The translations under genes were made by a program, and so were the position numbers. Below are positions 1 to 45,804 of a DNA stretch of 64,000 bases, one piece after another; the first letter of the stretch is position 1, and every line of letters starts with the position of its first letter. The notes beneath the pieces are model-generated. The model was not told the origin of the DNA and did no database searches. It worked only from the letters and a program-made list of their open reading frames with translations. The stretch is from a virus (Duplodnaviria > Heunggongvirae > Uroviricota > Caudoviricetes): positions 47,519-111,518 of IMG/VR virus record IMGVR_UViG_3300015177_000008. One strand, given 5' to 3'.

Positions 1-1537
1 CAGGTTTAAACGTCAGTTCAGTTTTGATCTGATCTTTCATTCCCGTGATTGGCTGTCCCTCGGCGTCTCGCAGAGACAGAACCAGCGGCTTTTGCGCACT
101 CCCGTTAGCAAGCATTTGGATACGGCTCTGGCCATCAAGCGTTAACGTAGTACGATCGGCGCTCATACCTGCTCCGGTAATGACCACCGCAGTCTGCACA
201 CGTTTCGAGGCATTGCCTTTGTTATCGTATGCAACCGCAGAGATCGCGTAATAATTGTCTTTGCCTGCACGATAAGCCGGGAGCGTTACTTGCCACTGGT
301 TACCCTGACCGGTAATTTTACCGCCTGCGGCCAGCAAAGACGGTGCTTCCCATTGCACATTTTTCAGGCCGTGAGTTGCTTTGCTGACCACGAGGCCAAG
401 AGACACCGTCTGCCCGCCCTTACCTTCAATACGGTCTGGCAAGGCAATACGGATCACCTCAGCTTTGCGATACTCAAGAACTATATTGTTATTACGTTCA
501 ACCAGATCATATCGGCTGCCTGCCAGTACCCGACGCTCGCGAATGCTGTCTGTATCGAGTTGTTTCTCCAGAGGCTCGCCAATCCGGTAGTTAACTTCCA
601 GGCCAAAGCGAGTGTCATTCTGACCGCTCTTGCCCTGTTTGTGCTCTGCACTCAGTGTCAGAAGAGGCACTGGCGTGTAATTCACTTCAGCGGTAATCGC
701 ATGTGGATCTTTCTGGCGTTTATCTTTACCAAACAGCCCAACTTCATCGCCATAATACTGTTCATACATCAGGCTTGCGCCAAGCTGCGGCCAGGCAGGT
801 AAATAACCCTCAGCACGAATATCCCAGCCATTCGCCGGGCGTTCCTGATAATCCTCAACATCCGGTGATTTTTTCCAGCCAGAAGCCCGGATATAACCAT
901 TGGCGCTCAGCTTAAGATAATCACGCCAGTATTCCGTACCAATACCAATGCGGGTATGACTACGAGATAAATCATGGTCAATAAAGGTATTCACCCCCGC
1001 CATCCAGTCATTACCTGAAAAATGACGCCAGCCAAAACCAATATTTGACTGAGTGCGATCGTCAGTGCGATGTATTGCCCCCTGAGTGAACAGCATATTT
1101 GTCGGCGTGTCATATATCGGATAAAGCATTTCCAGCGAAGAATCCTTCAGCGAGAAATCTTTATCGGCATTCAGTTTGACGCGCGCGGTGCCATATTTCC
1201 CGAGCCACTCCTGGATTTCCTGGGTGGCCTTAGCCGTAGCCATTCCGGTAACAAAGTTGCGAGTCGTATCGCTATCCGGCTGACTGCTTAAAAATTTACC
1301 GGCATTCGCGGCAACCGACGCGATATTTTTTTCTGTATTATTGTCAGTAGCAACCGCAGTATTTTCCGTACTTAGACGTGGCAAAGCCGCATTATGCGCT
1401 TGAGCTGTCATTGACGGTGTAAAAGTGACAGCTAATGGGAAAAGAACCTGAACAGAGATGTTTGCCCATGCCACACATCTAGCCAAGGCGGAATAGCGGA
1501 AACGTTGTTGTTTATAGGTTTTATTTAAACGTAACAT
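1..1537 (-). CDS. Intimin/invasin-family inverse autotransporter, N-terminal part; gene runs off the window start (partial)
   Basis: Minus-strand ORF from ATG at 1537 open to position 1 (not in track because no stop in window). Translation MLRLNKTYKQQRF... contains intimin/invasin beta-barrel-type motifs (YGTARVKLNADKDF, GIGTEYWRDYLKLSANGYIRASGW, GSRYDLVERNNNIVLEYRK). Confidence 0.7.
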   Translation of the reverse strand, partial: MLRLNKTYKQQRFRYSALARCVAWANISVQVLFPLAVTFTPSMTAQAHNAALPRLSTENTAVATDNNTEKNIASVAANAGKFLSSQPDSDTTRNFVTGMATAKATQEIQEWLGKYGTARVKLNADKDFSLKDSSLEMLYPIYDTPTNMLFTQGAIHRTDDRTQSNIGFGWRHFSGNDWMAGVNTFIDHDLSRSHTRIGIGTEYWRDYLKLSANGYIRASGWKKSPDVEDYQERPANGWDIRAEGYLPAWPQLGASLMYEQYYGDEVGLFGKDKRQKDPHAITAEVNYTPVPLLTLSAEHKQGKSGQNDTRFGLEVNYRIGEPLEKQLDTDSIRERRVLAGSRYDLVERNNNIVLEYRKAEVIRIALPDRIEGKGGQTVSLGLVVSKATHGLKNVQWEAPSLLAAGGKITGQGNQWQVTLPAYRAGKDNYYAISAVAYDNKGNASKRVQTAVVITGAGMSADRTTLTLDGQSRIQMLANGSAQKPLVLSLRDAEGQPITGMKDQIKTELTFKP

Positions 1538-2078
1538 TGACATAATTTCTTAATGAACGAGTTAACGAACATTTGCAACTGCGAGTAAAAGCATTTGCTT
1601 CCAGAAATATTTAGATTGGAGTGTCTATGCCCCCAACAGGGCCGCGAATGCTATCACAAACGAAAAAGTGCAACAACACATGAATTAACTGAGATTTAAT
1701 GATTGTTAGGCATCTATAACCAAAATGTTGCAACAACTTAAAATCAATGTTACTTGATAATGTATCCCAAATAACAGGAGGAGCTATTTCAGTACATGAG
1801 AGGATGATTATTCTAACAACATGGGAAGTAAAACATTTTTATTATTACATGATCCATAAATTAGAAATAAATGACCTAAGTCGTGAATAAAGCCTTTTAA
1901 GAAATAAAGTCAGCTCTATATCCAAAAAATAACTTTGAGATAATGAACACTATATCACATACCACATCAATTAATAACAACCTTCTACTTATATAACTTA
2001 GAAGTTGGTAGTTATTTATATAAATGCATTATAGTTTGCAAGTGTTTTTAAATGTTCATTTAACGATACTCATGATTT

Positions 2079-2567
2079 CTAATCAAAATTATTCAGTGCT
2101 TTTTTATTTATCATCTCGAACATTTTTAGTTCATCGTCAGATAATCCCTCCCAAACTTTCTTCATGATTATATTTTGCACACGTATCATTCTTTGTATAA
2201 ATAAAACTCCATCTGATGTTAAACATAAATTTTTACCTCGGCGATCGAGTTCATTATCAACACGTTTGATAAGGTTTTGCTTTTCTAAGATATCTGTAAT
2301 TCGCGTTATATTTGTTTTAGAAACCTGCAACAGGTTACTAATTTCAGATGGGGATAAACAATGACCATCAGTAAAATATAATAATGATAATGCCATAAAC
2401 ATGGTATTGTTTATTTTATGCTTCTCTAGCGCATCTGATATGACGTCCTGCATTTTATTGCTAATCCGGATACATAATTGCATTAGCAAATGCTCCTGAA
2501 CAGGATAATCTGTCTCTTTATTTTTTTGATAATCAAGTATTTTTTCTAGAAAAAGCACGTTTTTCAT
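2079..2567 (-). CDS. MarR-family transcriptional regulator
   Basis: 162 aa ORF with ATG at 2567; winged-helix MarR-like pattern (SPSEISNLLQVSKTNITRITDILEKQNLIKR...DRRGK); AT-rich gene flanked by AT-rich intergenic DNA. Confidence 0.55.
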   Translation of the reverse strand: MKNVLFLEKILDYQKNKETDYPVQEHLLMQLCIRISNKMQDVISDALEKHKINNTMFMALSLLYFTDGHCLSPSEISNLLQVSKTNITRITDILEKQNLIKRVDNELDRRGKNLCLTSDGVLFIQRMIRVQNIIMKKVWEGLSDDELKMFEMINKKALNNFD

Positions 2568-2741
2568 TGTTGTATCCGGTATTGAATAATCATCTCATAA
2601 AAACCATGTAGCCTGTGTGTGATATCTATGTCCCAATGAAACTGGTAAAATAAAGTATAGCAGTTCAAGATTCCTTGCGCCACCTGAATTTTCTACAGAT
2701 AATGCAAAACACATAGCAGTAAAACCTTTCGTTTATAAATT

Positions 2742-3041
2742 TTATTTTTTCCTATAAACATATAGTTCTCCATGCGCTTTCTTTCTGTCTCGGTGTATTC
2801 CCATTTCTTTTTCTATTCGTATCGTAGCTTTACGTAACTCTTTTGATGTGCTAACATCTTTGGCTGCAATGTTTTTTGGCACCGCCTGCTTCATGCAGCG
2901 GCGTATTTGTTCTCTAACATATATTCGTTGGTCTACCTGTCCTTCCTGTCGATAATCCATCAGTACTTCCTGCCAGCGAACAGCAGCCCTGCGCCATAGT
3001 CCTCTTTGCTCAAGATCTTCGGCCTTCTTGTCTCTAACCAT
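2742..3041 (-). CDS. PerC-like small transcriptional activator (putative)
   Basis: ATG at 3041 preceded by GGAGG; 99 aa basic protein with GLWRRAAVRW motif reminiscent of the PerC family. Track ORF 2742..3056 begins at an upstream TTG. Confidence 0.4.
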   Translation of the reverse strand: MVRDKKAEDLEQRGLWRRAAVRWQEVLMDYRQEGQVDQRIYVREQIRRCMKQAVPKNIAAKDVSTSKELRKATIRIEKEMGIHRDRKKAHGELYVYRKK

Positions 3042-3418
3042 TTCCCCTCCAAACAAACGTATGCTACAGATTAACTACCTAAAAATTGAGTTTAACACTA
3101 ACTCATGTAATTAATACTAATGCAAGAAAATATTCACTAATATTTTTATCTTTTAGTTATAAACTAAATTTACATGTGGCTGTTTTGCAAAATGTAGACT
3201 TCCTATATTTTTTATGAAATGATTAGGAAAATAAATTTATTTTATAGCCTTAACACTATGGTCAATACATTTCTTAACACCCAATGCCATCACGAATGAA
3301 CTAAGGAAAAGCGGAATGGCCTTTGACGTTAAAATGCTCTAACTGGAGGTTGTTCATGTGTTTTTCTCTTATCGTTTAGTTACTACATTCTTACACAAAC
3401 CAAGTAAGTGTTTACCTA

Positions 3419-5105
3419 TCATTTAACGCGTTTGAAAACGTATACGCTGACTGTGATCCCTGTGTCTTCAAACTCGTTGGTAAACGACTTCCCTCTGGCA
3501 TAAACGTAATTATCCATCGTCATCCAGTCCAGTATTGGCGCAGTGCCCGGCAATACTGCTACAAGACGCCCGCCGACTTTCAGATGCCCCAGCGCAGCCA
3601 GCGTGTGCTCTCTATGACGACCAAGCGAGTACGGCGGGTTCATAACGATTTTGTCGAACTGATAACCTGCGTTGTCCTCAGACCACTTTATGAAGTCGCA
3701 GCAAATCGTGTTCGTATACCCTTTTCCACGCAGGATATCAGCAAAGAGAGGTGCGATTTCTATGCAGGTAACATCTTCCAGATCGGCGTTAATATAGGCC
3801 AGAAGATCCCCACGTCCGGCTTGAGGCTCCAACAGCTTCTCACCAGGCTTCAATTCAGTGGCTCTTGCAACGTACTCAGCAATCAAGCGTGGGGTAGGGT
3901 AGAACTGGTGTGATTTTGTATCCGGTATTAAACCGGTAGCCACAATCGTATTTAGCGTATGGCCGATGTCATACGGGAACTGCCAGTGCTTTTTCTCCTG
4001 CACGCCGCCAATGAAGCTCAGTGTGCGCTCAAGCTCTTCCACCTGCGACTTCTGGAGAGCTGAATCAGAGAAGTACCATACTCCTTTGTCTTTGCTCAAT
4101 CGCCCGTCACGAAGCGCAGTGCGAACCGGGACGGAGATCGTCTTCTGGATTAGCCCGAACTGCTTTGGTGCCCGTGTTTTTTGGCGCTCTGCGGCATGGC
4201 GCGGGGATTGCTGCAGGCATACTGTAAGCCAGCACCTCATTCAACTTCCAGGCCACGTCAGGATGTATTTCAAAGTGAACGTTGCCGTTCTTGAACATCT
4301 TCACGCGCATCAGATTTCCATCGACGTTCATCCAGTCACCGGTCTGGCAGTCGTTTGCCCGATACGCAGCTGATAGCACCTCAGCAGTGCGGTTGATGGT
4401 AATAAATTCTTTGTGCGCGAAGAAATGAAGCAAAACACGCAGATCGTCGATATAGTCCTCTTTGCGATAGTTCACACTAACGCTGTCCCGCCAGAAATCA
4501 GAAATGCAGTCAGCGATTATCAGACGCTCGCTGAAACCGTTCGTCTTATTTGTCTTGTGCGCAGGACTCAGCGCCTTAAACAAGCCATACACGCGCTCGG
4601 AGAGATATTTGTGCCTGTCATTCAGCAAATTAAGCATCGTTGGTATGACCGTTTCTGCTTTGAACTCCGGTACACCAACGAACTCTTTAACCTTCATCTG
4701 ATAGCCGGTTCTGTCAGTTTTGATGACTTCCTGCTTGCCCTCGATAAATTGCTCACGCCACTCGTCGCGACGGGAAGCTGGCATGATCAGCAAAACGTTA
4801 GTCATATCCGTGACCTTCCTCCAGTACTCGGCCCAAATATTCTGTTTCACCCATTCCAGATCGACTTTATCCAACCAACCTCGATTTAAACGCGAGCGAT
4901 CTTCATCTGGTCGATGGTTTAGTCTCAGCAGGCGATTAATCATGTTGTGGCGTTCGTCGCCATAAACGAAGTCGTGTACCTGATACATGAAGTCGATCTC
5001 TTTCTCGCACTCGGCCACGATTTCGTGGATGACATTCATTTCCTGACGATAGTCGATAGCCGTGTTTGAGCTGGCATCGTCGATGATGGAAAGGGCTGTA
5101 TTCAT
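3419..5105 (-). pseudogene. SAM-dependent methyltransferase-like gene (NPPY motif, DUF4942-like), disrupted by a frameshift
   Basis: Two overlapping minus-strand ORFs in different frames (4107..5105 and 3419..4240). The downstream frame carries EPQAGRGDLL and IVMNPPYS motifs; the tail of the first and head of the second look like out-of-frame sequence. Confidence 0.5.
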
Positions 5106-6764: not shown

Positions 6765-6871
6765 CTTATGTGCTTTATTGTGATGTGGCATATAAGGGGA
6801 GCAAGCTAAACGTAAAGGTGCAAACTCTCTATTTTGGTCAACGAAACACAAGGGCCATTTGGCCCTTGTCA

Positions 6872-7030
6872 TTAACACGTTGCTTTACGGACTAGCGGAT
6901 AGGCGAAGTAGATCGCCAAACCAATGAGGACGCCATCAGAAATGACAGACATCATCTTTCCCGTGAAATCAACCAACACCGCCATCACCAGAAGAGCAAT
7001 GACGGTCACAAGCCGGAATCTCTCAAGCAT
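6872..7030 (-). CDS. Small membrane protein (52 aa)
   Basis: ATG overlaps the stop of the upstream gene (TAATG); hydrophobic MLERFRLVTVIALLVMAVLV...; below the track size cut-off. Confidence 0.3.
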   Translation of the reverse strand: MLERFRLVTVIALLVMAVLVDFTGKMMSVISDGVLIGLAIYFAYPLVRKATC

Positions 7031-7455
7031 TAGAGATAAGCATCCAGTGACAACTGAAGCGCCTGGGCGATCTTTTTCAGCGCCTGCTCTTCTTGTTCAC
7101 CAATGCCGTCCTGGTCGGCAATATCAAGGCACAGACACAGAACATCGACCGCCTCTGGAGTGCCCGCAATATCAGCCAGCTCACGCATAGCCTGTGCATT
7201 AGCGGAACGAGGGGACGCTTCGTAACGAGCACGGATATTGGCGCTCATTTGGGCAATTTCACCAGCAAACGGAGAAAACGCAGGCAGAGCTGCAATTGTT
7301 TTCTCAAGAATGGCAATTTCTTTTGCGTCACATGTGCCGTCGGCATAGGAGATCATGTACGCGCCCCACACGGTGGCCTCAACCGCATCACGGTTCTCCA
7401 TTTTTTTGACTTCAATAACAGCTTTACGAGTTTTCTTTTTGAAGAAACCTAACAT
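7030..7455 (-). CDS. Hypothetical protein
   Basis: 141 aa ORF; start context GGAAAACACATG; class-1 palindrome upstream. Confidence 0.5.
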   Translation of the reverse strand: MLGFFKKKTRKAVIEVKKMENRDAVEATVWGAYMISYADGTCDAKEIAILEKTIAALPAFSPFAGEIAQMSANIRARYEASPRSANAQAMRELADIAGTPEAVDVLCLCLDIADQDGIGEQEEQALKKIAQALQLSLDAYL

Positions 7456-7478
7456 GTGTTTTCCTTTTATTATTTGTC

Positions 7479-7493
7479 AAAACAAGTTGTTTT
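7479..7493. promoter_or_regulatory. Class-1 palindrome (putative operator)
   Basis: aaaacaagttgtttt upstream of the 7030..7455 start. Confidence 0.45.
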
Positions 7494-7548
7494 CTAGTTT
7501 CATATATTGCTTGCGCAAAGATGGTCAATGCATATGCACTAACAACCG

Positions 7549-7737
7549 TCAGAAATAACCAAGTACCGAACCGACTGGAAAAATAAAAATCCCAACTACA
7601 CGAGCCAAGGTCATGCCAGCCTGAAACTGGAGATCGCCAGAGCAAACAAGTTTTATAATGTTCGATACCCAACCGGCGGCCATGAGGGCCAGAATTGCCA
7701 GCCAAATTTTTCCAAAGTGATTTGAAAACCAGTTCAT
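7549..7737 (-). CDS. Small membrane protein (62 aa)
   Basis: Hydrophobic ORF; start overlaps the stop of 7734..7985 by 4 nt. Confidence 0.4.
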   Translation of the reverse strand: MNWFSNHFGKIWLAILALMAAGWVSNIIKLVCSGDLQFQAGMTLARVVGIFIFPVGSVLGYF

Positions 7738-7985
7738 ACAACCGCCTTAGTCACAGCATGATCCTGAGTAACTGGATGAACTTGAGGTATCGCATCCACC
7801 GCCATCCCATCCAGAGTGACAGGACGCTCCACTGGAGTGGTGGTAATTGTCGTCGACGAAGGTGTGGTGATGGATGAATCCGGCATCAAAAGGCTCTGAC
7901 CGGCTGGAACGGCTACCGTCGCCAGTGAAACTATAATGAGAACGTAGGCCATTGGTTTCAGCCTCTTTCTTTGAAAATTTTCCAT
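7734..7985 (-). CDS. Small secreted/membrane protein with Thr/Pro-rich tail (putative)
   Basis: N-terminal hydrophobic segment MAYVLIIVSLATVAVPAG; 4-nt overlap coupling to the next gene; lies entirely inside 7747..8241 in another frame. Confidence 0.35.
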   Translation of the reverse strand: MENFQRKRLKPMAYVLIIVSLATVAVPAGQSLLMPDSSITTPSSTTITTTPVERPVTLDGMAVDAIPQVHPVTQDHAVTKAVV

Positions 7986-8241
7986 CCGAACGGTCCTTGT
8001 TGTTTTTCTCCTTCACTAAAGGCCGTGCATTTTTCGCTTCACATGAAGAACTGGAGGTTACAATCGCCCCCACGTTCGCAACAACTGACGCTTGCTTATC
8101 TAAACGTGCCTTCAGCACCAGAACGGTAGTTTCCAATTCATCAAGACGTGACAGAAGGCGACCGCTAAATAATTCGGCCAAAATTTGACGTAAAGAACGA
8201 GGGCGTTTAGTTGCAGGAGTTAAAAAAAATTGACGTGCCAT
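7747..8241 (-). CDS. Hypothetical protein (C-terminal half possibly out of frame)
   Basis: N-terminal 85 aa look protein-like (coiled-coil); C-terminal part is low-complexity and overlaps 7734..7985. Confidence 0.35.
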   Translation of the reverse strand: MARQFFLTPATKRPRSLRQILAELFSGRLLSRLDELETTVLVLKARLDKQASVVANVGAIVTSSSSCEAKNARPLVKEKNNKDRSDGKFSKKEAETNGLRSHYSFTGDGSRSSRSEPFDAGFIHHHTFVDDNYHHSSGASCHSGWDGGGCDTSSSSSYSGSCCD

Positions 8242-8370
8242 GTGGACTCCATCCAGTGTCAGAAAGAGTTGCGGCTGGCGATTGCCAGCCGCCTTTCTCG
8301 TTCCATCCTGGAACTGTGTCTTACCGACACATTGTCATCCTGACGCCGATAAGATACATGATTTAACATA

Positions 8371-8390
8371 ATAGGTAAACACTTACTTAC
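8371..8390. promoter_or_regulatory. Class-2 AT-rich palindrome (ATARGTA...TACYTAT family)
   Basis: ataggtaaacacttacttac, overlapping the rnhA stop codon. Confidence 0.3.
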
Positions 8391-8980
8391 TGATTATTGT
8401 AAACAAAACCAATATCTTTCTTGTGAGGCGTATCTGCTGCGGAAAAAGCTGCGATCTTCGCCAGTCGATCACAGATTTCATTTTCACGATGCCCGGCGTG
8501 GCCTTTAACCCACTTCCAGCGAACATTATGTCGACTGGCAGCCTCATCCAGACGCTTCCACAGATCAACATTCTTTACTGGTTTTTTATCAGAAGTCATC
8601 CATCCATTACGTTTCCACCATTTCATCCACTGTGTCATGCCGTTTTTCAGATACTGGCTATCAGAGTGCAAAATAACGTTGCATGGATATTTCAAACGCT
8701 CCAGCCCGATAAGTGCCCCCATCATCTCCATGCGGTTATTGGTGGTGCTATGAAAACCATCTGAGAACTCGCGTTCCTCTCCACGATACTGGAGAACGAT
8801 ACCGTAACCGCCTGGGCCACCCGGATTTTTAAGGCAAGAGCCATCACTGAAGATTTTCACGGTTTTAAGCTGGGGATTGAACTCTACGACAGGCGTTGTG
8901 GGATTGGTGCGGGGAGAATTTTTGTTTTTGGCTTTTTTGCGAGTTTTTTCTTGCGATCGGGCTGGTGTCTTCGTCGTCAT
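8387..8980 (-). CDS. rnhA: Ribonuclease H
   Basis: ATG at 8980 with AGGAG upstream; RNase HI motifs ([32 protein letters not shown]). Track ORF extends upstream to 9034. Confidence 0.8.
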
Positions 8981-9039
8981 ATAAACTCCTGAATCAAGCG
9001 CCGCGCCGATTTTTTTCCTCGCGCGTGCGCACACGCGTG

Positions 9040-9560
9040 CGTGTTAATAATTATTAAAATAAACAAATTACTTCCCAGAACAGGTTTTTATAAACCTGAA
9101 CTGAACGAACGAAGTGAGTGAAGTTCACCTCGAACGAAGTGAGAGGTTGTCTTTTCAGGTAATACTCTCCCAGGGAGGTGAGTATAAAAATCCCTCACCA
9201 ACCTGGTCGTTTCATAACCTGAAAAGTTATGGCCTAAGTCTACTGCCAGCTTAGACTTGGGAAGTTATGGATGACAGCACCCCAGAACCGAGATCTTCCC
9301 ACACTTTATGAAGGGGAGTACTGGATTCAACCTCTCGAAACACCCCAGACTCGACAATCATAAAGTGACCCTTGTCTCCGCTCACTTTGGTTCCCCCTTC
9401 CCCGACACCTAAACGGCACCGGTTCTACGCTGGTAGTGAGCTTTTTTAAACCTGACGCCAGTGACGCTTACCCCCACCCATCAGGTCGAGTCTCCAGTCT
9501 ACGACTGGAAACTATCAGATCTTAGCACTTACAATTCATTTTATGAATAGTTTGTACTTA
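9040..9560. other. About 520-bp non-coding region with dense nested hairpins and short direct repeats (candidate structured RNA or origin-like region)
   Basis: No ORF of 60 aa or more; paired segments cttttcaggt/acctgaaaag, ggtgag/ctcacc, aagtcta/tagactt, ccagtc/gactgg; direct repeats gaacgaagtgag x2 and caccccaga x2; GC near 50 percent. Confidence 0.3.
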
Positions 9561-9564
9561 TCTA

Positions 9565-9795
9565 TCATTTCGATTGATTATTTTCTCGACCATGTAGTTG
9601 AACATTCAAGGCAAACACCTCGTTGATCAACTCACCTAAAAGCTGTTCAACAAGTTCGCGATGCTCCCCAAGATGCAAGCACTTAATTGCCCATTCGTAC
9701 AAGTTGAAAGCCTGCTCGCGGTCTTTCATCATTTCACGAGCCTTAGCCAGAAAATCGCTCTCTACGAGCGCAACAACATTGGTCGGGTATGGCAT
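9565..9795 (-). CDS. Hypothetical protein (76 aa)
   Basis: ORF in minus-strand gene array. Confidence 0.4.
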   Translation of the reverse strand: MPYPTNVVALVESDFLAKAREMMKDREQAFNLYEWAIKCLHLGEHRELVEQLLGELINEVFALNVQLHGRENNQSK

Positions 9796-9903
9796 GTTAG
9801 TTTTCCTTAAAGTGGTTCATAAAATCGATTTTAAAGCGTCTGGGAAGGGGTTCTAGTGGATTCTGTAGTGATGTTCAGGTCTGGAGTCTCTGATACAAAA
9901 CAG

Positions 9904-9958
9904 CCTGTTTCCGTATATTAATAATTAATATGTAGTTATTTATATATACAGAAGCAGG
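9904..9958. repeat. 55-bp element with 16-bp terminal inverted repeats (copy 1 of 2)
   Basis: cctgtttccgtatat ... tatatacagaagcagg around an AT-rich core; second copy at 57862..57916. Confidence 0.5.
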
Positions 9959-10488
9959 CTAATTACAGACGCCAGAACAAACTAAGCAGCCTTCTTTGAT
10001 GGTCTTTTTTTTTCTGACCACATTCGCAGGATCATACCCTCCCAGACTTTTCATGACGTCCAAAGGGATCTTGCTTATAGAGTGCCCAGCGTCCTGACAG
10101 AATCCTCGAAAAACAACGAGCATACTGCCACCGGGGTTGATGTTTACTTCTACCTGACCCAGATTGACGTCAGGCTCGACAAACGCTACGCGGCCACCAG
10201 ACAGAATAATCGTCTCATTCGCACACTCTGTTGCACGCTCATACCACTTTGTATCTAGGGATTGAGGAAGGCAATTGTACCTGGCTGTCCCCATTCAGAT
10301 TTCAAAGCATCACGCTCAACGCCTATGAAATTAGGCAGCTTTGCATTGTCCTTGTTGCAGGCAACGTCAACATCAAATGTCACTCCAAGATAACGTTGAA
10401 TGGCAGAAAACAGCCAGTCAGGTGTTCTCCAGAGGTCACGAAGAGAGTTGTCGCGCTTTCGCTGTTTGATTTTTTCGGCTGCAATCAT
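9959..10488 (-). pseudogene. Phage-type DNA N6-adenine methyltransferase (Dam family), disrupted
   Basis: Two ORFs in different frames: 10255..10488 ends ...GTIAFLNP-stop where NPPY/F is expected; 9959..10294 carries the downstream LPxxLDTKWY block. Apparent internal deletion plus frameshift. Confidence 0.5.
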
Positions 10489-10499
10489 CTTCTCTCTCG

Positions 10500-10519
10500 A
10501 TAGGTAAGTAAATACCTAT
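10500..10519. promoter_or_regulatory. Class-2 AT-rich palindrome
   Basis: ataggtaagtaaatacctat, just upstream of the Dam-like ORF start. Confidence 0.35.
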
Positions 10520-10551
10520 TTTTGCATTTGATTTTATGTCTGGCAATCAAA

Positions 10552-10598
10552 TAAAACGCGCCAGAAATGCAAACGAGAAGCTCTCTGGCGCGTTTTTG
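10552..10598. terminator. Bidirectional rho-independent terminator
   Basis: A-run, cgcgccaga ... tctggcgcg stem, then TTTTT; sits downstream of 10672..11481. Confidence 0.55.
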
Positions 10599-10671
10599 TG
10601 GTGCTGGGTATGTAATTGGCTTACCCAGCACTATAAAGCTCTCTATGGGCTTTATTTTCAGTAGGGGAACG

Positions 10672-11481
10672 TCATCCAATAGTGTACTCCGCGACAAACT
10701 TCTTAACGATCGGTGATTCTTCGTTCAATGTTAGATTTCCACCGTCTCTAACGGCAATTCCTGTCGCTGGAAATACAGCCATCATTTGCCCAGCCTGAGT
10801 TGACGCAGTGTTAAGCGGATACGGTTTTTCTGGATTGCTCATTAAAGCAATCTTAATACTATTACTTGTAGCCTTCTTTTCTGTGAGAAGGTGTCTCATG
10901 GAAATTACCGTGTAAACACTAATATCTGGACCTCCGCTAAACCAATTAAGAAGGTTTAATATCTTATCCTTTGCTTTGACAGGCGCGTTCTCATAAGCAT
11001 CTAAAAAAATATCTTTATCTAAACCCGCTTTATTGAAAAACGCATCATCTTTATCACTTAGAGTAAAACGAGGACCTCTTGCAGTACGCGCTTTTTTATT
11101 TGTGTTGCTATCATTTGACTGTTGAACTTTTAATTCATCATTAATCTCAACACACCCTTCAACCTCGATGATCCCCAACTGTTCTGGTTCGTTTTCGGCA
11201 GCTTCACCACTTTCAGCGTTAATTACGTTTATAGGCTCATGCGCTAACTCCAACTCATTTAAAGCTGAGCTGAAATCACCTGCTTTTTCTTCATTGAACA
11301 GTTCTTCGGCAACATCATCAGAACTCATGGCTACGCCAGCATCGAGGCCTAGAAGCAGATCGTCAATATCATCAGTATTTTCGACCTGTGCAGCTTTTTT
11401 TACCGGTTCATCAAGTGATTGCAACATAGCTGTCAGTTCGTCCAGATCATCATTTGTCATTACATTTTCAACCGAACTCAT
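10672..11481 (-). CDS. Hypothetical acidic protein
   Basis: 269 aa ORF rich in Asp/Glu. Confidence 0.5.
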   Translation of the reverse strand: MSSVENVMTNDDLDELTAMLQSLDEPVKKAAQVENTDDIDDLLLGLDAGVAMSSDDVAEELFNEEKAGDFSSALNELELAHEPINVINAESGEAAENEPEQLGIIEVEGCVEINDELKVQQSNDSNTNKKARTARGPRFTLSDKDDAFFNKAGLDKDIFLDAYENAPVKAKDKILNLLNWFSGGPDISVYTVISMRHLLTEKKATSNSIKIALMSNPEKPYPLNTASTQAGQMMAVFPATGIAVRDGGNLTLNEESPIVKKFVAEYTIG

Positions 11482-11639
11482 GTAAGTCTCCTTCTGTTTG
11501 GTTACATTTGCGTTTCGATGGCTACATTTTGACTAAACCTATCAGGCGGAAAAGTATTAAATACAGGCAGGAAATGATTGAAAGGCGACTGTTCTTTAAA
11601 AGAAAGCCTACTTTAAACTTTTTAAAGTAGGCTTTTGTT

Positions 11640-12188
11640 TTACACAATTTCAGAGGGTAATTTAAAAAATCCGTACTTATTACGTGCCTTAAAGAAGCAT
11701 TGCATCATTAAGTTTGTGTCATATAAGGCACTATGTGCTTTGGCATGATCGTATATAAAGCCAAGAGAGAAGGCCAACTCTTCAAGGCGGGGACGTTTAC
11801 CGTCTTCTGTGGCCCACAGGGAAAATAGAGTGTCAATCAATGGGATGTCTGGAAGCGAAAAACCGTAACTTTTCAGCTCATGCCTAATAAACGGAATATC
11901 GAACGCTTCGCCGTTGTGGGCTATCCAAATATCGGAAGAAGAGAGATACGAAGCGACAGATGAAGCGTGATCGGCTAGTAACGGCTCGGCGGCTAAATCT
12001 TCAAGACTGATGCCGTGTACCGCTTGCGCTTTCGGATCGATACTGCGACGCGGGTTGAACCGCATTACAAAACTATCAACCATTGTCTGTGTCTCAATTT
12101 CGTACTTCACCATTGCGATTTCAATGATTTTATGGCCTGAGAGGAAATCAAGACCTGTTGATTCGATGTCCACCCCTGTAGCAATCAC
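11640..12188 (-). CDS. DnaQ-like 3'-5' exonuclease (DEDDh)
   Basis: Exo motifs VDIESTGL, HNGEAFDIPF, HSALYDTNL. Confidence 0.7.
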   Translation of the reverse strand: MIATGVDIESTGLDFLSGHKIIEIAMVKYEIETQTMVDSFVMRFNPRRSIDPKAQAVHGISLEDLAAEPLLADHASSVASYLSSSDIWIAHNGEAFDIPFIRHELKSYGFSLPDIPLIDTLFSLWATEDGKRPRLEELAFSLGFIYDHAKAHSALYDTNLMMQCFFKARNKYGFFKLPSEIV

Positions 12189-12979
12189 TTTTTATCTCCT
12201 TTTACTGGTCGTTTGGACGGTGTGAAGATGGCAGCTTCAACATCCCACCCCCTCAAAATTCGCTGCGAGATAATGGTCGCAGTCAAGCCAACCTCTCTAG
12301 CCCATTCGGTAATTCGCTGAGTTCTGCCGCGACACTCGATCAGACGCTTACTATCTCGGTTGGCATACGTGTCGACGCTGGCGTTAAGCGCGCGATCTAA
12401 TGGCCACCCTTTCTTGATTCGATAGTGAAGAGTTGATGTCTGAATCCCGGCTCTTTTAGCCCATTGTGAGAGAGTCAGCTTTTCCCCCTTATGCTCCAAA
12501 ATTAAGTTTGAACGCGTGTTATTGGCCTGTTCTTCAAAAGTCGCCCATCTGCAATTTTCAGGTTCGTAGTCACCATTCACATCTTTGCGATCAAGAGACA
12601 TCCCCTCTGGTCGCTCTCCCATGTCAGCATAAAAGTTTTCAAATATTTGCCACCGCTCGCAGACTTTGATACCTCGGCCGCCATACCACTTATAGGCGTG
12701 ATGGGTTGGTTTTTCACATCGTTCCCGCATACCCAGCCATATACGATAAATTGGCGTTTTACTCATACCATGAGGCTTTACGCTACGGCGATGTGCGTTG
12801 TAGACACAGCCACACGATATTGTCGCCCCGTGATTTAGCTTCCCGTAACTAACCAGACAGGTGTTGCCGCAATCGCAGATGCAATCCCAAAGTCGCCCTT
12901 GTTTGTTTGAAATACCGGAATATTTAAGTGCAACCAACTTTCCAAAACGTTTACCTGTTATATCTACCGGTTGTCCCAT
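12185..12979 (-). CDS. HNH homing endonuclease
   Basis: Cys-rich N-terminus, HNH-type motif (VNGDYEPENCRWAT), two C-terminal helix-turn-helix-like repeats (TLSQWAKRAGIQTSTLHYRIKKGW / ITEWAREVGLTATIISQRILRGW). Confidence 0.65.
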   Translation of the reverse strand: MGQPVDITGKRFGKLVALKYSGISNKQGRLWDCICDCGNTCLVSYGKLNHGATISCGCVYNAHRRSVKPHGMSKTPIYRIWLGMRERCEKPTHHAYKWYGGRGIKVCERWQIFENFYADMGERPEGMSLDRKDVNGDYEPENCRWATFEEQANNTRSNLILEHKGEKLTLSQWAKRAGIQTSTLHYRIKKGWPLDRALNASVDTYANRDSKRLIECRGRTQRITEWAREVGLTATIISQRILRGWDVEAAIFTPSKRPVKGDKK

Positions 12980-13469: not shown

Positions 13470-14114
13470 CTAATGAACGGTCACTCGGCCACAGAACCGG
13501 TTTTCTATCTTTTCTACAGCGTTATCTAGCATTCTCATCACTGATCTGGCTCTTGCTTCAACCGTGCGATATCGGTTGGAAACGACGAAGGTTTGCAGAT
13601 CCCCCCTTTGCGGATGCAGGTGAATTTTTGTCAGTTCCCCGCACATCAACGCATCAATACGAGCGACATACAGACGGTCTAATGATGCTCGTTGTGATCG
13701 CAAGTAATCTCGCTCTGAGAGAGCGACTCCCGGGCGTAGGCCAGCAATGGCGTTAAAGTTTGAAATAGCAGTTTTGTGGCAAAACTTTTCGATATCGAGG
13801 GCTAACTCAATACATCGATCTTCATTGGTATGGCCGACCAAATCCAACGTGTAGGCCATAACATCAGCAGGTGTGCGATCGATAACAAAGCCTTCAACAC
13901 CACGCGTAAGTAGCTCTATATGCTTTGCTATTTCCATTTGAATCTGAAGCCGCTCATATAGAGACATAGACTCACCTACTCGAACACCGAGTCGGCTCAT
14001 CAAACTTCCGACACCAGCATCCACGTAAGGGATTCCGTAATGTTTGTCGATATATTTTGCCAGGGTTGTTTTCCCACTGCCCTGAGCACCAGTGATCCCA
14101 ATCCGGTAATCCAT
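13470..14114 (-). CDS. P-loop NTPase, possible nucleotide kinase
   Basis: Walker A GITGAQGSGKTT near the N-terminus; position next to folA/thyA fits a nucleotide-metabolism role. Confidence 0.45.
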   Translation of the reverse strand: MDYRIGITGAQGSGKTTLAKYIDKHYGIPYVDAGVGSLMSRLGVRVGESMSLYERLQIQMEIAKHIELLTRGVEGFVIDRTPADVMAYTLDLVGHTNEDRCIELALDIEKFCHKTAISNFNAIAGLRPGVALSERDYLRSQRASLDRLYVARIDALMCGELTKIHLHPQRGDLQTFVVSNRYRTVEARARSVMRMLDNAVEKIENRFCGRVTVH

Positions 14115-14590
14115 TACGACCTTCTGTATACGATCTGCGAAAAGCCAGGCTCTTCCTCGCTGGCTCGTTGGGTATAAGCTGTTTCAACAGGCACAAAGCC
14201 TAAATTACGCATCATGCTTGCCGGGAAGAATGCATCGGCGTTTGGCACATCAACGCCGATGTGGGAGAGCCAAATCTCTTCAACATGCGGCATGAATAGC
14301 GAGTAAATTTGTTCCCCGCCAATCACCCACACAGGCTCTGGTAATCGCAACACATCATCCACACCAGCAGGGTAGAATCCATTTGGTACAAAGCCATGAG
14401 AGCGCGTCAAAACGAGGTTATGACGCTCTGGAAGAGGGCGTTTGAGACTTTCCATCGTTTTACGCCCCATAACGACAGTGGCGTTTTTGGTGAGTCTCTT
14501 AAATAGCTTCAGATCGGTAGAACAACGCCAGGGCAGTTCGTTCGCTATGCCGATCTCATAGTTACGGCCAACAGCAGCTATCATCTTCAT
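14114..14590 (-). CDS. folA: Dihydrofolate reductase
   Basis: DHFR pattern MIAAVGRNYEIG...LPW...VVMGRKT...LPER.N.VLTR; stop/start overlap with neighbours. Confidence 0.85.
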   Translation of the reverse strand: MKMIAAVGRNYEIGIANELPWRCSTDLKLFKRLTKNATVVMGRKTMESLKRPLPERHNLVLTRSHGFVPNGFYPAGVDDVLRLPEPVWVIGGEQIYSLFMPHVEEIWLSHIGVDVPNADAFFPASMMRNLGFVPVETAYTQRASEEEPGFSQIVYRRS

Positions 14591-26384: not shown

Positions 26385-26460
26385 CACATATCCACAGGAT
26401 AGATCCTAATAAAGAGATCCATAGATAGATCCTTGTATAGATCAAATAAGATCCCCGATC
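26385..26460. promoter_or_regulatory. Origin-like segment: DnaA-box-like site plus dense GATC cluster
   Basis: atatccaca (8/9 match to TTATCCACA) followed by six GATC sites within about 60 bp, immediately upstream of the iterons and repA. Confidence 0.45.
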
Positions 26461-26496
26461 GCTGTAAGCCGCGCCACGACTGGTCTGAAGCCATGT

Positions 26497-26605
26497 TCAT
26501 GTATGCTGTCAGCGGTAATTGATAGTCTGTCAGCGGTTCACCGTATGCTGCCAACTGTTTTTGGTATTCTGTCAGCGGCAAATCAAGTATGCTGTCAGCG
26601 GTTGA
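26497..26605. repeat. Iterons, upstream set (about 5 copies of TATGCTGTCAGCGGT and variants)
   Basis: Direct repeats tatgctgtcagcggt, gtctgtcagcggt, tattctgtcagcggc with irregular spacing. Confidence 0.7.
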
Positions 26606-26622
26606 ATGACAAAGGTGTCCAC

Positions 26623-27717: not shown

Positions 27718-27718
27718 T

Positions 27719-28250
27719 ATGCTGTCAGCGGTGAAATGTATGCTATCAGCGGCTATTTTTCTGAAAAGTATGCTGTGAACGGTTAAAGATATGCTACCAG
27801 CGGTATAGTGAGATGAACGTATGCTGTGAGCGGTAAATCATCTATCACCACTCAATGCTCTGTCATACCTCCCCAGTGGTTACTAACCTCGAAGAGTGCA
27901 TTCCATATAGGTTTGCGCTCACTAACATTCTATTGCTATTGCGCTGATTGCTTGTAGTGAAAGGCATTTATTGCCTGCTGCTCCCTGATAGAACGTATGC
28001 TGTCAGCGGTGTTTTATTGAGGAATTTTTGTTTGGATATGCTATCAGCGGTAATTAATGGTATATGTCAGACCTTCGTATGCTGCCAGCGGTAATTTTGT
28101 TCTGGTTATACCCATACCGGTACACATTATTCATGCAATGTCTTAAGTATGCTGTCAGCGGTAAAAAATCGAGTAAAGTATGCTGTGAGCGGTGAGATAG
28201 ACTCTCGATATGCTATCAGCGGTAGTTGATTGTGTATGCTGTCAGCGGTG
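27719..28250. repeat. Iterons, downstream set (at least 11 copies)
   Basis: tatgctgtcagcggt and variants (tatgctatcagcgg, tatgctgtgagcggt, tatgctgccagcggt) spaced about 20-35 bp apart, with a 160-bp gap. Confidence 0.75.
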
Positions 28251-30990: not shown

Positions 30991-31034
30991 ATATTTTCAA
31001 GAAATAAAAAAGGCGTCCTGTGGACGCCTTGTGT

Positions 31035-33374: not shown

Positions 33375-33376
33375 GA

Positions 33377-43206: not shown

Positions 43207-45315
43207 TCACTTCAAAATGATACGAGATAGTTCAGTAACTACAGATGAACCAAGACTATCAACGCTCGTTACCAGGGCATGATTTGAGTAAAATCTCTCC
43301 GGTGCGTCAGTCATGATGCCAATTGCCATCAAATCAATGTCAGTCTGCGTTTCAATTTGCTTCGCAACCGAACGCAAATGAGCGTCAAAACCTCTCCCAA
43401 CAGCCCACGGCGCGCCATCGCTCAGAACAAGCATGATCTTCCTGTCCTCCAAGCGACCGGAAAATAACGATGCAAGGCTGGCTATGCTTTCACCATCCAC
43501 GTTATTAAGAAGTGGGAATGTGTAGCCTACGCACCCCATACGTGAGCGAACTTCGCGAGAATTTGCTTTTTCATTCCAATTTTTGATGATAGGTAGCATT
43601 AAAGATTCAAAGCGAGAGAACTCATATTTGATAGCCTTAAGTTCTCCTGCTGCCATATGACTGCCAAATGTAGTGAAGCCGGTGATAATGTTGGGAACAT
43701 TTATTCGATCAAGTGCATCGGCGATGGTATATGCACTTGCAAGAGCTAGTTTTATCGTTTCGCCACTCATTGAACCCGATAAATCAATCACTTGTTGAAC
43801 ACAGGCGTTAACGGCTTTAGATTCTTCTTTTTTACGAAACACGCGATCATCATTCATTGTTAATCTGTAGATACTTGAACCATGAATGCGCCCCCGACGC
43901 TGGCCAGGTATAAACTGAACTCTGTTTCTGCTTGCTATTGCACGTTCCAGGTCTTTTGCCAGCGTCGACGAAACACCTGACGAAAGGTGCTTTTCAATAT
44001 ATTTGTCGAAGAGTTGGTTGCCTTCAGGAACGATGCGATAACGGCTGATTGGATATCCACCTAAATCAATATCGGAGAATGTTTTAATAAGCCGTTTGAT
44101 ATGGGCTTCTGCCTGATCAATCGAGCCGATGAAGTCGTATGAGCGATTGTATGGCCTGTATTCGCTTTTCGAGCTTTCTGTTAACTCGCTTTTAATCGTT
44201 TCGGATAGCGCATCTTCTGTCATGCCTCCGACTTCATCTTCCATGCTATCCAACTCCTCTAAAGCCTCTTCCAGACTCATTTTTGACGGAGTTGGAATGT
44301 CTGAAGAGCCGTCTTCTGTCGATTTTCTTTTTTCGTGGTCAGTGGTAAATGATTCTGACGCCGCGTTATCAGAAGCACCAGAATCTGATACCTCTTTATC
44401 ATTTTCTGTATCATCGAATATTGTTTCTGATGATTCAGAATTATCTGAATCATCACTGTCGTTATTATCATGTTTGTGCTTACTGTGTGATTCTGATTTG
44501 ATAGATTTGTGATTATCTAACGCTGGGGGTGTCTCATGATCTTCGTTGTCTTCATTGTTTTCTCCAGAGGCATCCGTCTGGTCAGCGTCTGAAGGATCGG
44601 AAGTTTTTCCCGGAGCTGACTCCTTACCTTTGCTTTCACTTTCAGTGTCTTTGAGGATCTTAGCTATGGTCGCAGCCACCTTTACACAATCCTCGGTGCA
44701 AGACATGTTACGCACGGCCACATCGATACCATGTTCTTTTAATAATGAAATTGGTTTCTCAATGACAGGCCAATATTCATCCATGAAATCTACGAACGGT
44801 GCTTGGCCATCCCAGGCTCTTACAACCGGACAGAGAAAGAAGTTTAGAAAAAGCGCGCGCTGATCTTTACCACAATAAGCAATAGCCTCTGAAGCCTTTG
44901 GTTTAAAGACTTTTTCGATTATAAGGCGCTGAGTTGCCATCAGATTACGTCTTGTTCCGTTAAAGACCTGACCCATTTTTCGCTCGATGAACACGTCTTC
45001 TAAGGCATTCCATAGCGACCAGGAAGGAACGCGTCCTTTTTCTCTCATTTTGTTGGACACACGAATATCGGTAAACAAAATGTGAGCAACCTCATGATCG
45101 AGAAATCCGCGCACAGCATTCATCAATGCCGGTGTTGCGTTATCCGGGATTGATGGGATGTTTACGAGAATTGGCTCTCCATCATCGTTATAGCGTACAT
45201 AAGCGTCGTCCCCTCGTTCTGCAACAGGGATGTTTTTACCTGAAAGGAGAGCGACTACTCGTTTTACACTGTCACGGAAGTCCTGAACCTCTTTGATGGA
45301 ATGTTTTTTAGACAT
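43207..45315 (-). CDS. CobT-like protein with von Willebrand A domain
   Basis: MIDAS-type DLSGSM; long acidic Ser/Asp/Glu-rich low-complexity insert; degenerate class-1-like site upstream. Confidence 0.6.
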   Translation of the reverse strand: MSKKHSIKEVQDFRDSVKRVVALLSGKNIPVAERGDDAYVRYNDDGEPILVNIPSIPDNATPALMNAVRGFLDHEVAHILFTDIRVSNKMREKGRVPSWSLWNALEDVFIERKMGQVFNGTRRNLMATQRLIIEKVFKPKASEAIAYCGKDQRALFLNFFLCPVVRAWDGQAPFVDFMDEYWPVIEKPISLLKEHGIDVAVRNMSCTEDCVKVAATIAKILKDTESESKGKESAPGKTSDPSDADQTDASGENNEDNEDHETPPALDNHKSIKSESHSKHKHDNNDSDDSDNSESSETIFDDTENDKEVSDSGASDNAASESFTTDHEKRKSTEDGSSDIPTPSKMSLEEALEELDSMEDEVGGMTEDALSETIKSELTESSKSEYRPYNRSYDFIGSIDQAEAHIKRLIKTFSDIDLGGYPISRYRIVPEGNQLFDKYIEKHLSSGVSSTLAKDLERAIASRNRVQFIPGQRRGRIHGSSIYRLTMNDDRVFRKKEESKAVNACVQQVIDLSGSMSGETIKLALASAYTIADALDRINVPNIITGFTTFGSHMAAGELKAIKYEFSRFESLMLPIIKNWNEKANSREVRSRMGCVGYTFPLLNNVDGESIASLASLFSGRLEDRKIMLVLSDGAPWAVGRGFDAHLRSVAKQIETQTDIDLMAIGIMTDAPERFYSNHALVTSVDSLGSSVVTELSRIILK

Positions 45316-45413
45316 GGCTAATCCTTTGTTATGAAAACAAATTATTTACTAGTGTGTTTAATGTAGCACTGCGCGAACAGGGAACTAAGCCATTCGCGCA
45401 GGGAGAAGAGGGG

Positions 45414-45626: not shown

Positions 45627-45804
45627 TCAATCAATCCATTCTAACTTATACTATGGTAAGGAATACTACTAAAATTTGTATCAATACTGAATACATCTAT
45701 ATCAGATGCAAGTTAATTTTCTTACCTATTTTGGGCTGGTTTTTCTCCATGCATGGACCTTTGCTCGGTCTTACAAGTGCCTGCCGAAAAAAAATGATAA
45801 TAGC

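What the first reader, a model, noticed from the sequence alone, without database searches (positions are those of the whole stretch)
9959..10488. Decayed phage-type Dam methyltransferase gene
Both the N-terminal and C-terminal blocks of a phage Dam-family enzyme are present but in different frames. The sequence passes directly from ...GTIAFLNP to ...LPQSLDTKWY, implying a deletion that removed the catalytic NPPY/F motif plus a frameshift.
Basis: partly seen in the sequence, partly recalled or inferred. Interest (0 to 1): 0.45.

Follow-up and report, generated by a model that had tools for sequence, protein, structure and literature searches.

The report
Dead Dam methyltransferase gene, phage-plasmid
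This is a real but ordinary broken gene: one sublineage of an E. coli SSU5-like phage-plasmid lost 88 bases, including the catalytic centre, from its phage-type DNA adenine methyltransferase gene, and public annotation already marks it as a frameshifted pseudogene.

Summary
On the minus strand, ORF 10255..10488 (77 aa) matches the N-terminal part of Pfam Dam PF05869. ORF 9959..10294 (111 aa) matches the C-terminal part in another frame.

The window is an E. coli SSU5-like phage-plasmid of about 108 kb, 98.5% identical at this locus to phage Cyrano. Relatives carry an intact 594-bp, 197-aa gene. The window lacks 88 bp bounded by an exact 11-bp direct repeat, TTCCTCAATCC; one copy remains at 10259-10269. 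This single deletion removes P78-I103, including the PY of NPPY, and also causes the frame change.

Four independent sequences share the same allele: the window, plasmids from Mali and Thailand, and a human-gut metagenome contig. It is therefore inherited, not an assembly error. It is rare: 2 of 207 E. coli records that carry the gene. The gene is otherwise conserved (78 of 80 IMG/VR relatives intact; dN/dS about 0.1).

NCBI's PGAP annotation pipeline already labels it "frameshifted". This is an ordinary, lineage-specific pseudogene.

The one mildly interesting extra is that the element's only other predicted adenine methyltransferase (DUF4942 type, 3419..5105) is also frameshifted, in the same sublineage only.

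The parts
9982..10488 (-). Dam (phage N-6-adenine-methyltransferase) pseudogene, from the ancestral ATG to the ancestral TAG stop. It is 507 bp, against 594 bp in intact alleles.
   Evidence: Alignment A1 to L001 and L003. The PGAP pseudo-CDS has the same limits in NZ_CP117002.1 and NZ_JBTZOT010000003.1, flagged 'frameshifted'.
10255..10488 (-). 5' fragment ORF: 77 aa plus a TAG stop created at the junction. It encodes M1-P77 of the ancestral enzyme, including the conserved WRTP and DVDVA blocks and NP of NPPY.
   Evidence: PF05869 positions 5-67, E 2.3e-16. Identical to residues 1-77 of the intact protein.
9959..10294 (-). 3' fragment ORF of 111 aa. Only 10267 down to about 10014 is ancestral Dam frame (P104 to about R189). 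The first 9 codons are out-of-frame read-through, and the last 14 codons follow the poly-A frameshift.
   Evidence: PF05869 positions 94-162, E 5.1e-7; alignment; intact translation.
10259..10269 (-). Deletion junction: the single surviving copy of the 11-bp direct repeat TTCCTCAATCC. Intact alleles have two copies 88 bp apart (gene nt 220-230 and 308-318).
   Evidence: alignment. One search shows the repeat pair present in all 28 E. coli-clade IMG/VR alleles. One search shows the junction 39-mer is unique in the window.
10005..10013 (-). A9 homopolymer (T9 on the plus strand). Intact alleles have G+A7 or A8, so this is +1 nt. It shifts the frame of the last codons and moves the stop from 9982-9984 to 9959-9961.
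   Evidence: The A8 intermediate is seen in intact genes L031, L032 and L036. The A9 allele occurs only in the 2 deletion-bearing E. coli records of 207 and in L091.
10518..10546 (-). Sigma-70-like promoter match upstream of the pseudogene: TTGCCA, 17 nt spacer, AAAAAT, with TG before the -10 hexamer. It is followed by a purine-rich GAGAGAGAAG before the ATG. It is unchanged relative to intact alleles, so the remnant is probably still transcribed.
   Evidence: consensus match only; 4 sites found against 2.6 expected, so weak. Upstream sequence conservation.

Best explanation
This is a non-functional remnant of the phage-type Dam (N6-adenine DNA methyltransferase, PF05869/TIGR01712) gene of an E. 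coli SSU5-like phage-plasmid.

**Origin of the lesion.** In an ancestor of this sublineage, an 88-bp deletion occurred between two exact 11-bp direct repeats (TTCCTCAATCC) inside the gene. This is the signature of replication slippage, also called short-homology deletion. The deletion removed the codons for P78-I103, which include the PY of the catalytic NPPY motif IV and the segment that follows it. Because 88 is not a multiple of 3, it also put the 3' half out of frame and created a TAG immediately after the junction.

**Second lesion.** A +1 slippage in a poly-A run (A8 to A9) additionally rewrote the C-terminal tail.

**Consequence.** No product of this locus can methylate DNA. The 77-aa and 111-aa ORFs are by-products.

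**Why the loss was probably tolerated (inferred).** The E. coli host supplies its own Dam, and phage orphan methyltransferases are accessory functions.

**Shown versus inferred.** Shown: the lesions, their inheritance, their rarity, and conservation of the intact gene. Inferred: the slippage mechanism, the GATC specificity of the ancestral enzyme, and the reason the loss was tolerated.
For: - **Family assignment.** Both fragments match Pfam Dam above the curated cut-off. The intact orthologue matches PF05869 at E 2.5e-38, TIGR01712 at 113.9 bits against a cut-off of 97.05, and phrog_111 at E 1.6e-65.
- **The element.** It is an SSU5-like phage-plasmid: 98.5% identical to phage Cyrano, about 74% to SSU5, and syntenic with 177 PLSDB plasmids.
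- **The lesions.** The alignment shows an exact 88-bp gap flanked by the 11-bp repeat, plus the poly-A change.
- **Rarity.** The junction 39-mer occurs in only 2 of the 207 E. coli complete-genome records that carry the gene, and in 1 of 177 PLSDB records. The A9 allele is restricted to the same 2 records.
- **Independent copies.** The same allele is found in the window, NZ_CP117002.1 (Mali stool), NZ_JBTZOT010000003.1 (Thailand blood), and human-gut metagenome contig OXVH01000937, whose name gives coverage 57.8.
- **Existing annotation.** PGAP calls it 'frameshifted'.
- **Conservation of the intact gene.** 78 of 80 IMG/VR relatives (61-100% aa identity) are intact with NPPY at 76-79. dN is 0.10-0.26 while dS is about 1.5-1.7 or saturated, giving dN/dS of about 0.07-0.15.
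- **Source of the poly-A change.** The A8 intermediate exists in intact genes.
Against: - No expression or methylome data are available, so residual non-catalytic roles of the fragments cannot be formally excluded.
- The order of the two lesions is unknown.
- GATC specificity of the ancestral enzyme rests only on what is known of the T1, HP1 and VT2 Dam family (my own knowledge). It was not tested here.
- The promoter is apparently intact, so the remnant may still be transcribed.
Confidence: 0.95

Rival explanations
1. Assembly or sequencing artefact: the real molecule carries an intact single ORF, and the gap and poly-A length are errors.
For: Homopolymer-length errors are common in long-read assemblies. 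The window also differs from NZ_CP117002.1 by single-base indels elsewhere, for example at 5151.
Against: - An 88-bp loss bounded by an 11-bp repeat is not a typical base-calling error.
- The identical junction and A9 tract occur in four independently produced sequences from different continents and methods. One is a metagenome contig named NODE_937_length_5652_cov_57.77, 99.98% identical to the window.
Confidence: 0.01
2. Programmed ribosomal frameshifting, or a split two-subunit enzyme, still yields active Dam from the two ORFs.
For: The two ORFs overlap by 40 nt (10255-10294), and the upstream promoter and RBS are unchanged.
Against: - The codons for P78-I103 are absent, so any fused product lacks PY of NPPY plus 24 further conserved-length residues.
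- No X XXY YYZ slippery heptamer lies in the overlap (read directly from the sequence).
- The ATG at 10294 has no Shine-Dalgarno-like sequence before it.
- All 78 intact relatives are single ORFs.
- The arrangement is confined to one rare sublineage.
Confidence: 0.01
3. Reversible phase variation (a phasevarion-like switch): the poly-A tracts toggle methyltransferase expression on and off.
For: Both methyltransferase genes of the element carry +1 changes in A-runs: A8 to A9 in Dam, and A5 to A6 in the DUF4942 methyltransferase. Tract length differs among alleles (G+A7, A8, A9).
Against: - The 88-bp deletion is irreversible and inactivates Dam whatever the tract length.
- The Dam poly-A sits 8 codons from the stop, where a shift only alters a variable basic tail.
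- A5/A6 is too short for efficient slippage.
- Among 207 and 162 records, only the two deletion-lineage records have the shifted lengths. That is not the within-lineage heterogeneity expected of a switch.
Confidence: 0.02
4. Adaptive, selected loss: this sublineage lost both of its orphan adenine methyltransferases because their methylation was harmful or useless. Harm could come from a host methyl-adenine-dependent Type IV restriction or defence system. Uselessness could follow a shift to mainly vertical plasmid inheritance. On this reading the Dam lesion is half of a coordinated event rather than random decay. This overlaps with the best explanation as to what the locus is; it differs only as to why.
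For: - The whole 108-kb record NZ_CP117002.1 has only three pseudogene flags among 122 features. Two of them are the only two predicted DNA adenine methyltransferases.
- Both lesions are confined to the same two E. coli records.
- Hitting just these two genes at random, weighted by length, has a probability of roughly 2e-4. This is my own post-hoc estimate.
- The same sublineage carries extra cargo (inverse autotransporter, MarR, PerC; window 1-3302) that relatives lack.
Against: - This is one lineage, so it amounts to a single evolutionary observation, and the statistic is post hoc.
- Accessory methyltransferases are among the most dispensable phage genes. The DUF4942 region matched only 162 records against 207 for Dam.
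- No intermediate with one gene dead and the other alive was found.
- No information on host defence systems is available.
Confidence: 0.2

Closest known systems
Intact orthologue: 'phage N-6-adenine-methyltransferase' WP_000559568.1 of E. coli SSU5-like phage-plasmids (e.g. pYLMB30c; phage Cyrano CYRAN_79 'Adenine methyltransferase'; SSU5 'putative N-6-adenine-methyltransferase')
   Same: - Same locus and synteny, between the 269-aa acidic hypothetical protein and the 76-aa hypothetical protein / rnhA.
- 99% nucleotide identity outside the lesions.
- Same promoter region.
   Different: - The window lacks 88 bp (gene nt 231-318), and so lacks P78-I103 and the reading frame.
- It has A9 instead of G+A7 or A8.
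- It is 507 bp instead of 594 bp from start to the ancestral stop.
Pfam PF05869 / TIGR01712 phage Dam family. From my own knowledge, its characterised members are the GATC-specific Dam enzymes of coliphage T1, Haemophilus phage HP1 and Stx phage VT2/933W.
   Same: Both remnants align to the family profile (positions 5-67 and 94-162 of 169). The intact orthologue is a full-length member that scores above the equivalog cut-off.
   Different: The window copy lacks profile positions ~68-93, including the aromatic residue of (D/N)PP(Y/F), and it is not one ORF. No solved structure of a sequence relative exists. Specificity was not tested.
Short-direct-repeat (slipped-strand, RecA-independent) deletions, such as the classical lacI deletion hot spots. 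This comparison rests on my own knowledge.
   Same: The deletion end-points lie in an exact 11-bp direct repeat, with one copy retained.
   Different: The mechanism is inferred from the end-point structure only and cannot be observed here.
Phase-variable DNA methyltransferases (phasevarions)
   Same: A methyltransferase gene with a homopolymer tract whose length differs between alleles.
   Different: - The tract lies at the extreme 3' end.
- The length is fixed within the lineage.
- The gene is independently destroyed by an irreversible deletion.

Membership tests
Phage Dam N6-adenine methyltransferase (PF05869 / TIGR01712) | Significant match to the family profile | tested here: met
   The fragments score 60.4 and 30.0 bits against a cut-off of 28.1, covering profile positions 5-67 and 94-162. 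The intact orthologue scores 131.8 bits on Pfam and 113.9 bits on TIGR01712, whose cut-off is 97.05.
Phage Dam N6-adenine methyltransferase (PF05869 / TIGR01712) | Catalytic motif IV (D/N)PP(Y/F/W) present | tested here: not met
   The window retains only N76-P77, followed by a stop. PY and the next 24 residues are deleted. 79 of 80 IMG/VR relatives have NPPY, including all 78 intact ones.
Phage Dam N6-adenine methyltransferase (PF05869 / TIGR01712) | Single uninterrupted ORF of about 185-210 aa | tested here: not met
   There are two ORFs in different frames, of 77 and 111 aa. PGAP labels the locus a 'frameshifted' pseudogene.
Phage Dam N6-adenine methyltransferase (PF05869 / TIGR01712) | N6-methylation of adenine in GATC | not testable with these tools
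   This needs methylome or enzymatic data. GATC frequency in the window is unremarkable: 267 observed against 256 +/- 14 expected.
SSU5-like (pHCM2-like) phage-plasmid, as the host element | Colinear near-identity to known SSU5-group phage-plasmids, with both phage structural genes and plasmid replication/partition genes | tested here: met
   - 99.8% identity over 64 kb to p108_MLI108-3.
- 98.5% to phage Cyrano and about 74% to SSU5 at this locus.
- The record encodes terminase, portal, capsid and tail genes, plus RepB and ParB.
Phasevarion (phase-variable methyltransferase) | Reversible on/off switching through a repeat tract that is the only lesion and varies within a lineage | tested here: not met
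   An irreversible 88-bp deletion is present. The A9 length is identical in all four carriers.

The most novel reading that the evidence does not exclude
The Dam lesion is one half of a coordinated loss. This phage-plasmid sublineage has inactivated both of its orphan adenine methyltransferases (Dam, and the DUF4942-type enzyme at 3419..5105) while keeping its other genes intact. That pattern suggests selection against self-methylation, for example escape from a methyl-adenine-dependent host defence, or a move away from horizontal, phage-like spread.
Probability: 0.15. Interest if true: 0.4.

Novelty: already known. Interest (0 to 1): 0.1.

Why it matters
It matters little. The locus is a routine pseudogene that RefSeq already flags.

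Its practical value is as a clean lineage marker for one SSU5-like phage-plasmid sublineage, seen so far in Mali, Thailand and a human-gut metagenome. The markers are the 39-mer junction and the A9 and A6 tracts.

It is also a natural knock-out. Comparing this element with intact relatives could show what the conserved phage-plasmid Dam, and the second methyltransferase, actually do: anti-restriction, packaging, or control of the GATC-rich origin. If the double methyltransferase loss were shown to be selected, it would be a small case study of mobile elements shedding methylation to evade methylation-dependent defences.

Tried and rejected
1. A 71-bp junction query was uninformative. Intact alleles matched as two joined pieces and outranked true junction carriers. 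I replaced it with a 39-mer whose arms are each shorter than the 28-base megablast word.
2. Assembly artefact: rejected, because four independent carriers share the allele.
3. Programmed frameshift or a split enzyme: rejected, because the catalytic codons are absent and the overlap contains no slippery site.
4. Phase variation: rejected.
5. A compensating pair of lesions (-88 +1 = -87, net in frame): rejected. A TAG follows the junction immediately, and about 250 nt between the lesions would be read out of frame.
6. A search for a solved structure of a relative found none for Dam. For the DUF4942 enzyme it found only a sub-threshold match to M.TaqI.
7. Literature searches found nothing on these genes. 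They covered SSU5 and phage-plasmid methyltransferases, DUF4942, PF05869, strain MLI108K3 and two phage-plasmid papers.
8. The junction search in IMG/VR found no carrier.
9. Overall GATC depletion or enrichment, as a clue to specificity: none was found.

Full report
**1. Observation**

On the minus strand the window contains two ORFs.
- ORF 10255..10488 encodes 77 aa: MIAAEKIKQRKRDNSLRDLWRTPDWLF...GQPGTIAFLNP*.
- ORF 9959..10294 encodes 111 aa: MGTARYNCLPQSLDTKWYERATECANETIILSGGRVAFVEP....

The first matches Pfam PF05869 (DNA N-6-adenine-methyltransferase, Dam) at profile positions 5-67 of 169 (E 2.3e-16, 60.4 bits). The second matches positions 94-162 (E 5.1e-7, 30.0 bits). Both are above the curated 28.1-bit cut-off. 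The description is therefore correct and is not a chance resemblance.

**2. What the element is**

The 661 bp around the locus match 177 PLSDB plasmids of about 105-125 kb. These come from Escherichia and Shigella, and almost all are non-mobilizable.

Among phages, the region matches Escherichia phage Cyrano (98.5%), E. coli 'CMS-2020a' phage-plasmids, Klebsiella phage-plasmids (about 75%) and Salmonella phage SSU5 (about 74%).

The whole 64-kb window is 99.80% identical to plasmid p108_MLI108-3 (NZ_CP117002.1; E. coli MLI108K3, human stool, Mali). It differs by 123 mismatches and 5 gap openings, and 111 of the mismatches cluster at 44-50 kb.

That record encodes terminase, portal, capsid and tail genes. 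It also encodes RepB, ParB, DnaE, NrdAB, ThyA and a DHFR. This is the SSU5/pHCM2-type phage-plasmid described in the literature (e.g. PMC7969092 and PMC9600943, listed).

**3. The lesion**

Intact relatives have one 594-bp gene of 197 aa. Its sequence around the catalytic site reads ...GTIAFLNPPYSKISPWIDAAIREQARGVTTVMLIPQSLDTKWYERA..., and its product is WP_000559568.1, 'phage N-6-adenine-methyltransferase'.

The four-way alignment shows that the window, like p108_MLI108-3, lacks exactly 88 bp.
- In the intact gene the 11-mer TTCCTCAATCC occurs twice, at gene nt 220-230 (reading F74 L75 N76 P77) and at nt 308-318 (reading (I103) P104 Q105 S106).
- The window keeps one copy, at 10259-10269.

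Because 88 = 29x3+1, the deletion is itself the frameshift. It also creates CCC-TAG, the stop at 10255-10257.

The lost residues are P78-I103. They include the PY of the NPPY catalytic motif IV, whose aromatic residue stacks on the flipped adenine in N6-adenine methyltransferases (established knowledge of the enzyme class).

Deletion end-points in a short exact direct repeat, with one copy retained, are the classical signature of replication slippage (short-homology deletion). This step is inferred.

**4. A second lesion**

Near the 3' end, intact alleles read CAG-GAAAAAAAG. Some intact alleles carry a synonymous AGG-to-AGA change that gives CAGAAAAAAAAG, an A8 run (L031, L032 and L036).

The window reads CAGAAAAAAAAAG, an A9 run at 10005-10013.

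This +1 replaces the ancestral tail ...RKKRPSKKAA* (stop at 9982-9984) with ...RKKKTIKEGCLVCSGVCN* (stop at 9959-9961).

The net change, -88 +1 = -87, is not compensatory. A stop follows the junction immediately, and about 250 nt between the two lesions would be read out of frame.

**5. Real or artefact, and how common**

A 39-mer centred on the junction has arms too short to seed on intact alleles. Its results were:
- It hits only NZ_CP117002.1 and NZ_JBTZOT010000003.1 (E. coli UID2309220033, blood, Thailand) in the E. coli complete-genome collection, where 207 records (206 genomes) carry the gene.
- It hits only NZ_CP117002.1 among 177 PLSDB plasmids.
- It hits nothing in IMG/VR.
- It hits one human-gut metagenome contig, ENA OXVH01000937, named NODE_937, cov 57.8.

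The metagenome contig is 99.98% identical to window 6811-12462 and also has A9. The A9 allele is likewise limited to the same two E. coli records. The Thai plasmid is identical to the window over the 661 bp.

The window is not identical to either plasmid. Four independent sequences therefore share both lesions.

The allele is real and inherited, and it marks a rare sublineage. PGAP already annotates it as 'DNA N-6-adenine-methyltransferase; frameshifted' with limits equivalent to window 9982-10488.

**6. Is the intact gene under selection?**

Of 80 IMG/VR relatives (61-100% aa identity), 78 are intact with NPPY at 76-79. Two carry 1-nt indels (L074, L089).

Against diverged relatives, dN is 0.10-0.26 while dS is about 1.5-1.7 or saturated. 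This gives dN/dS of about 0.07-0.15.

The gene is thus normally maintained by purifying selection, and the window shows a lineage-specific loss.

The 11-bp repeat pair exists only in the E. coli clade (28 of 80 loci). The deletion hot spot is therefore clade-specific.

**7. Can anything functional remain?**

- The promoter-like site (10546-10518) and the purine-rich leader are unchanged, so transcription is likely.
- No product can contain the catalytic loop.
- The overlap 10255-10294 has no X XXY YYZ slippery heptamer, and the ATG at 10294 lacks a Shine-Dalgarno sequence (read).
- Phase variation is excluded by the irreversible deletion and by the fixed tract length in all carriers.

**8. Why the loss was tolerated (inference)**

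Members of this family characterised elsewhere (T1, HP1, VT2 Dam; my own knowledge) methylate GATC, which E. coli's own Dam also does. The specificity of this particular enzyme was not testable here.

GATC is neither avoided nor enriched in the window overall: 267 observed against 256 +/- 14 expected.

**9. Context worth noting**

The element's only other predicted DNA adenine methyltransferase is also broken in the window.
- The intact form is a 561-aa protein with an N-terminal DUF4942 domain.
- Its C-terminal domain carries EPQAGRGD (motif I) and NPPY (motif IV).
- It matches phrog_6263 'DNA methyltransferase' at E 1e-299, and has a weak M.TaqI-like match.
- The lesion is a +1 A in CCAAAAAC (A6 at window 4177-4182). 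It splits the gene (3419..5105, minus strand) into ORFs of 332 and 273 aa.

PGAP flags it 'frameshifted' in both plasmids. The shifted allele is again confined to those two records, of the 162 that carry the region.

The complete 108-kb record has only three pseudogene flags among 122 features: these two methyltransferases and a partial head-fibre gene.

Losing both orphan methyltransferases in an otherwise intact element is suggestive of a common cause, either relaxed or negative selection on self-methylation. However, it is a single lineage and a post-hoc observation. I give the adaptive reading about 0.15-0.2.

**10. Verdict**

The feature is a genuine but ordinary pseudogene that public annotation already flags. 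It arose by an 88-bp deletion between 11-bp repeats plus a homopolymer +1. Novelty: already known. Interest: low.

Noticed in passing
window 3419-5105 (minus strand); A6 run at 4177-4182: A second adenine-methyltransferase pseudogene. The gene is DUF4942 plus a gamma-type N6-methyltransferase domain (motif I EPQAGRGD, motif IV NPPY; 561 aa when intact). A +1 A splits it into ORFs of 332 and 273 aa. The lesion occurs in the same two E. coli records as the Dam deletion, and nowhere else among the 162 records with the region.
   Followed up: yes
window 26402-26622 and 27718-27854 (flanking repB, which starts near 26503-26510): The replication region looks like P1 oriR. Six GATC sites lie within 59 bp (26402-26460). 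They are followed by five iterons (TATGCTGTCAGCGG-like; four at 21-bp spacing, the fifth 44 bp on) upstream of repB. More iterons lie downstream of the gene. This suggests GATC-methylation-sensitive origin control, which could be one role for a plasmid-borne Dam.
   Followed up: partly
window 1-3302: Cargo specific to this sublineage: the end of a 4.2-kb inverse-autotransporter (intimin/invasin-like) gene, a MarR regulator and a PerC-family regulator. Most related phage-plasmids align only from window position 3303 onward. Just outside the window, the reference record also carries chromosomal-type metG and apbC.
   Followed up: partly
window ~44000-50000: 111 of the 123 mismatches between the window and NZ_CP117002.1 cluster here. 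The region covers the cobT-related gene, the integrase and the tRNA genes. This looks like a recombination patch between otherwise near-identical plasmids.
   Followed up: no
window 14114-14590 (minus strand): The phage-type dihydrofolate reductase in the nucleotide-metabolism block (thyA, nrdAB) is named 'trimethoprim-resistant DfrA51' by PGAP in the reference record. It is a core phage-plasmid gene being read as a resistance gene.
   Followed up: no
window ~31030-33375 (minus strand; record NZ_CP117002.1 4413-6752): A 2340-bp ORF annotated 'LAGLIDADG family homing endonuclease' lies in the replication-gene block. It may be an intein-containing or endonuclease-invaded gene.
   Followed up: no
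window 10559-10594: A long palindrome (CGCGCCAGA...TCTGGCGCG, 18-nt loop) flanked by T-runs on both strands lies between the upstream 269-aa gene and the Dam promoter. It is probably a bidirectional terminator. The simple scan did not call it because its loop exceeds 8 nt.
   Followed up: no
L074 (IMGVR_UViG_2880329822_000001) and L089 (IMGVR_UViG_3300045988_157701), Dam gene at 1501 onward: Two other relatives have 1-nt indels in the Dam gene: a deletion near codon 181 in L074, and an insertion near codon 26 in L089. They may be independent decays or sequencing errors. The state of their DUF4942 methyltransferase was not examined.
   Followed up: partly
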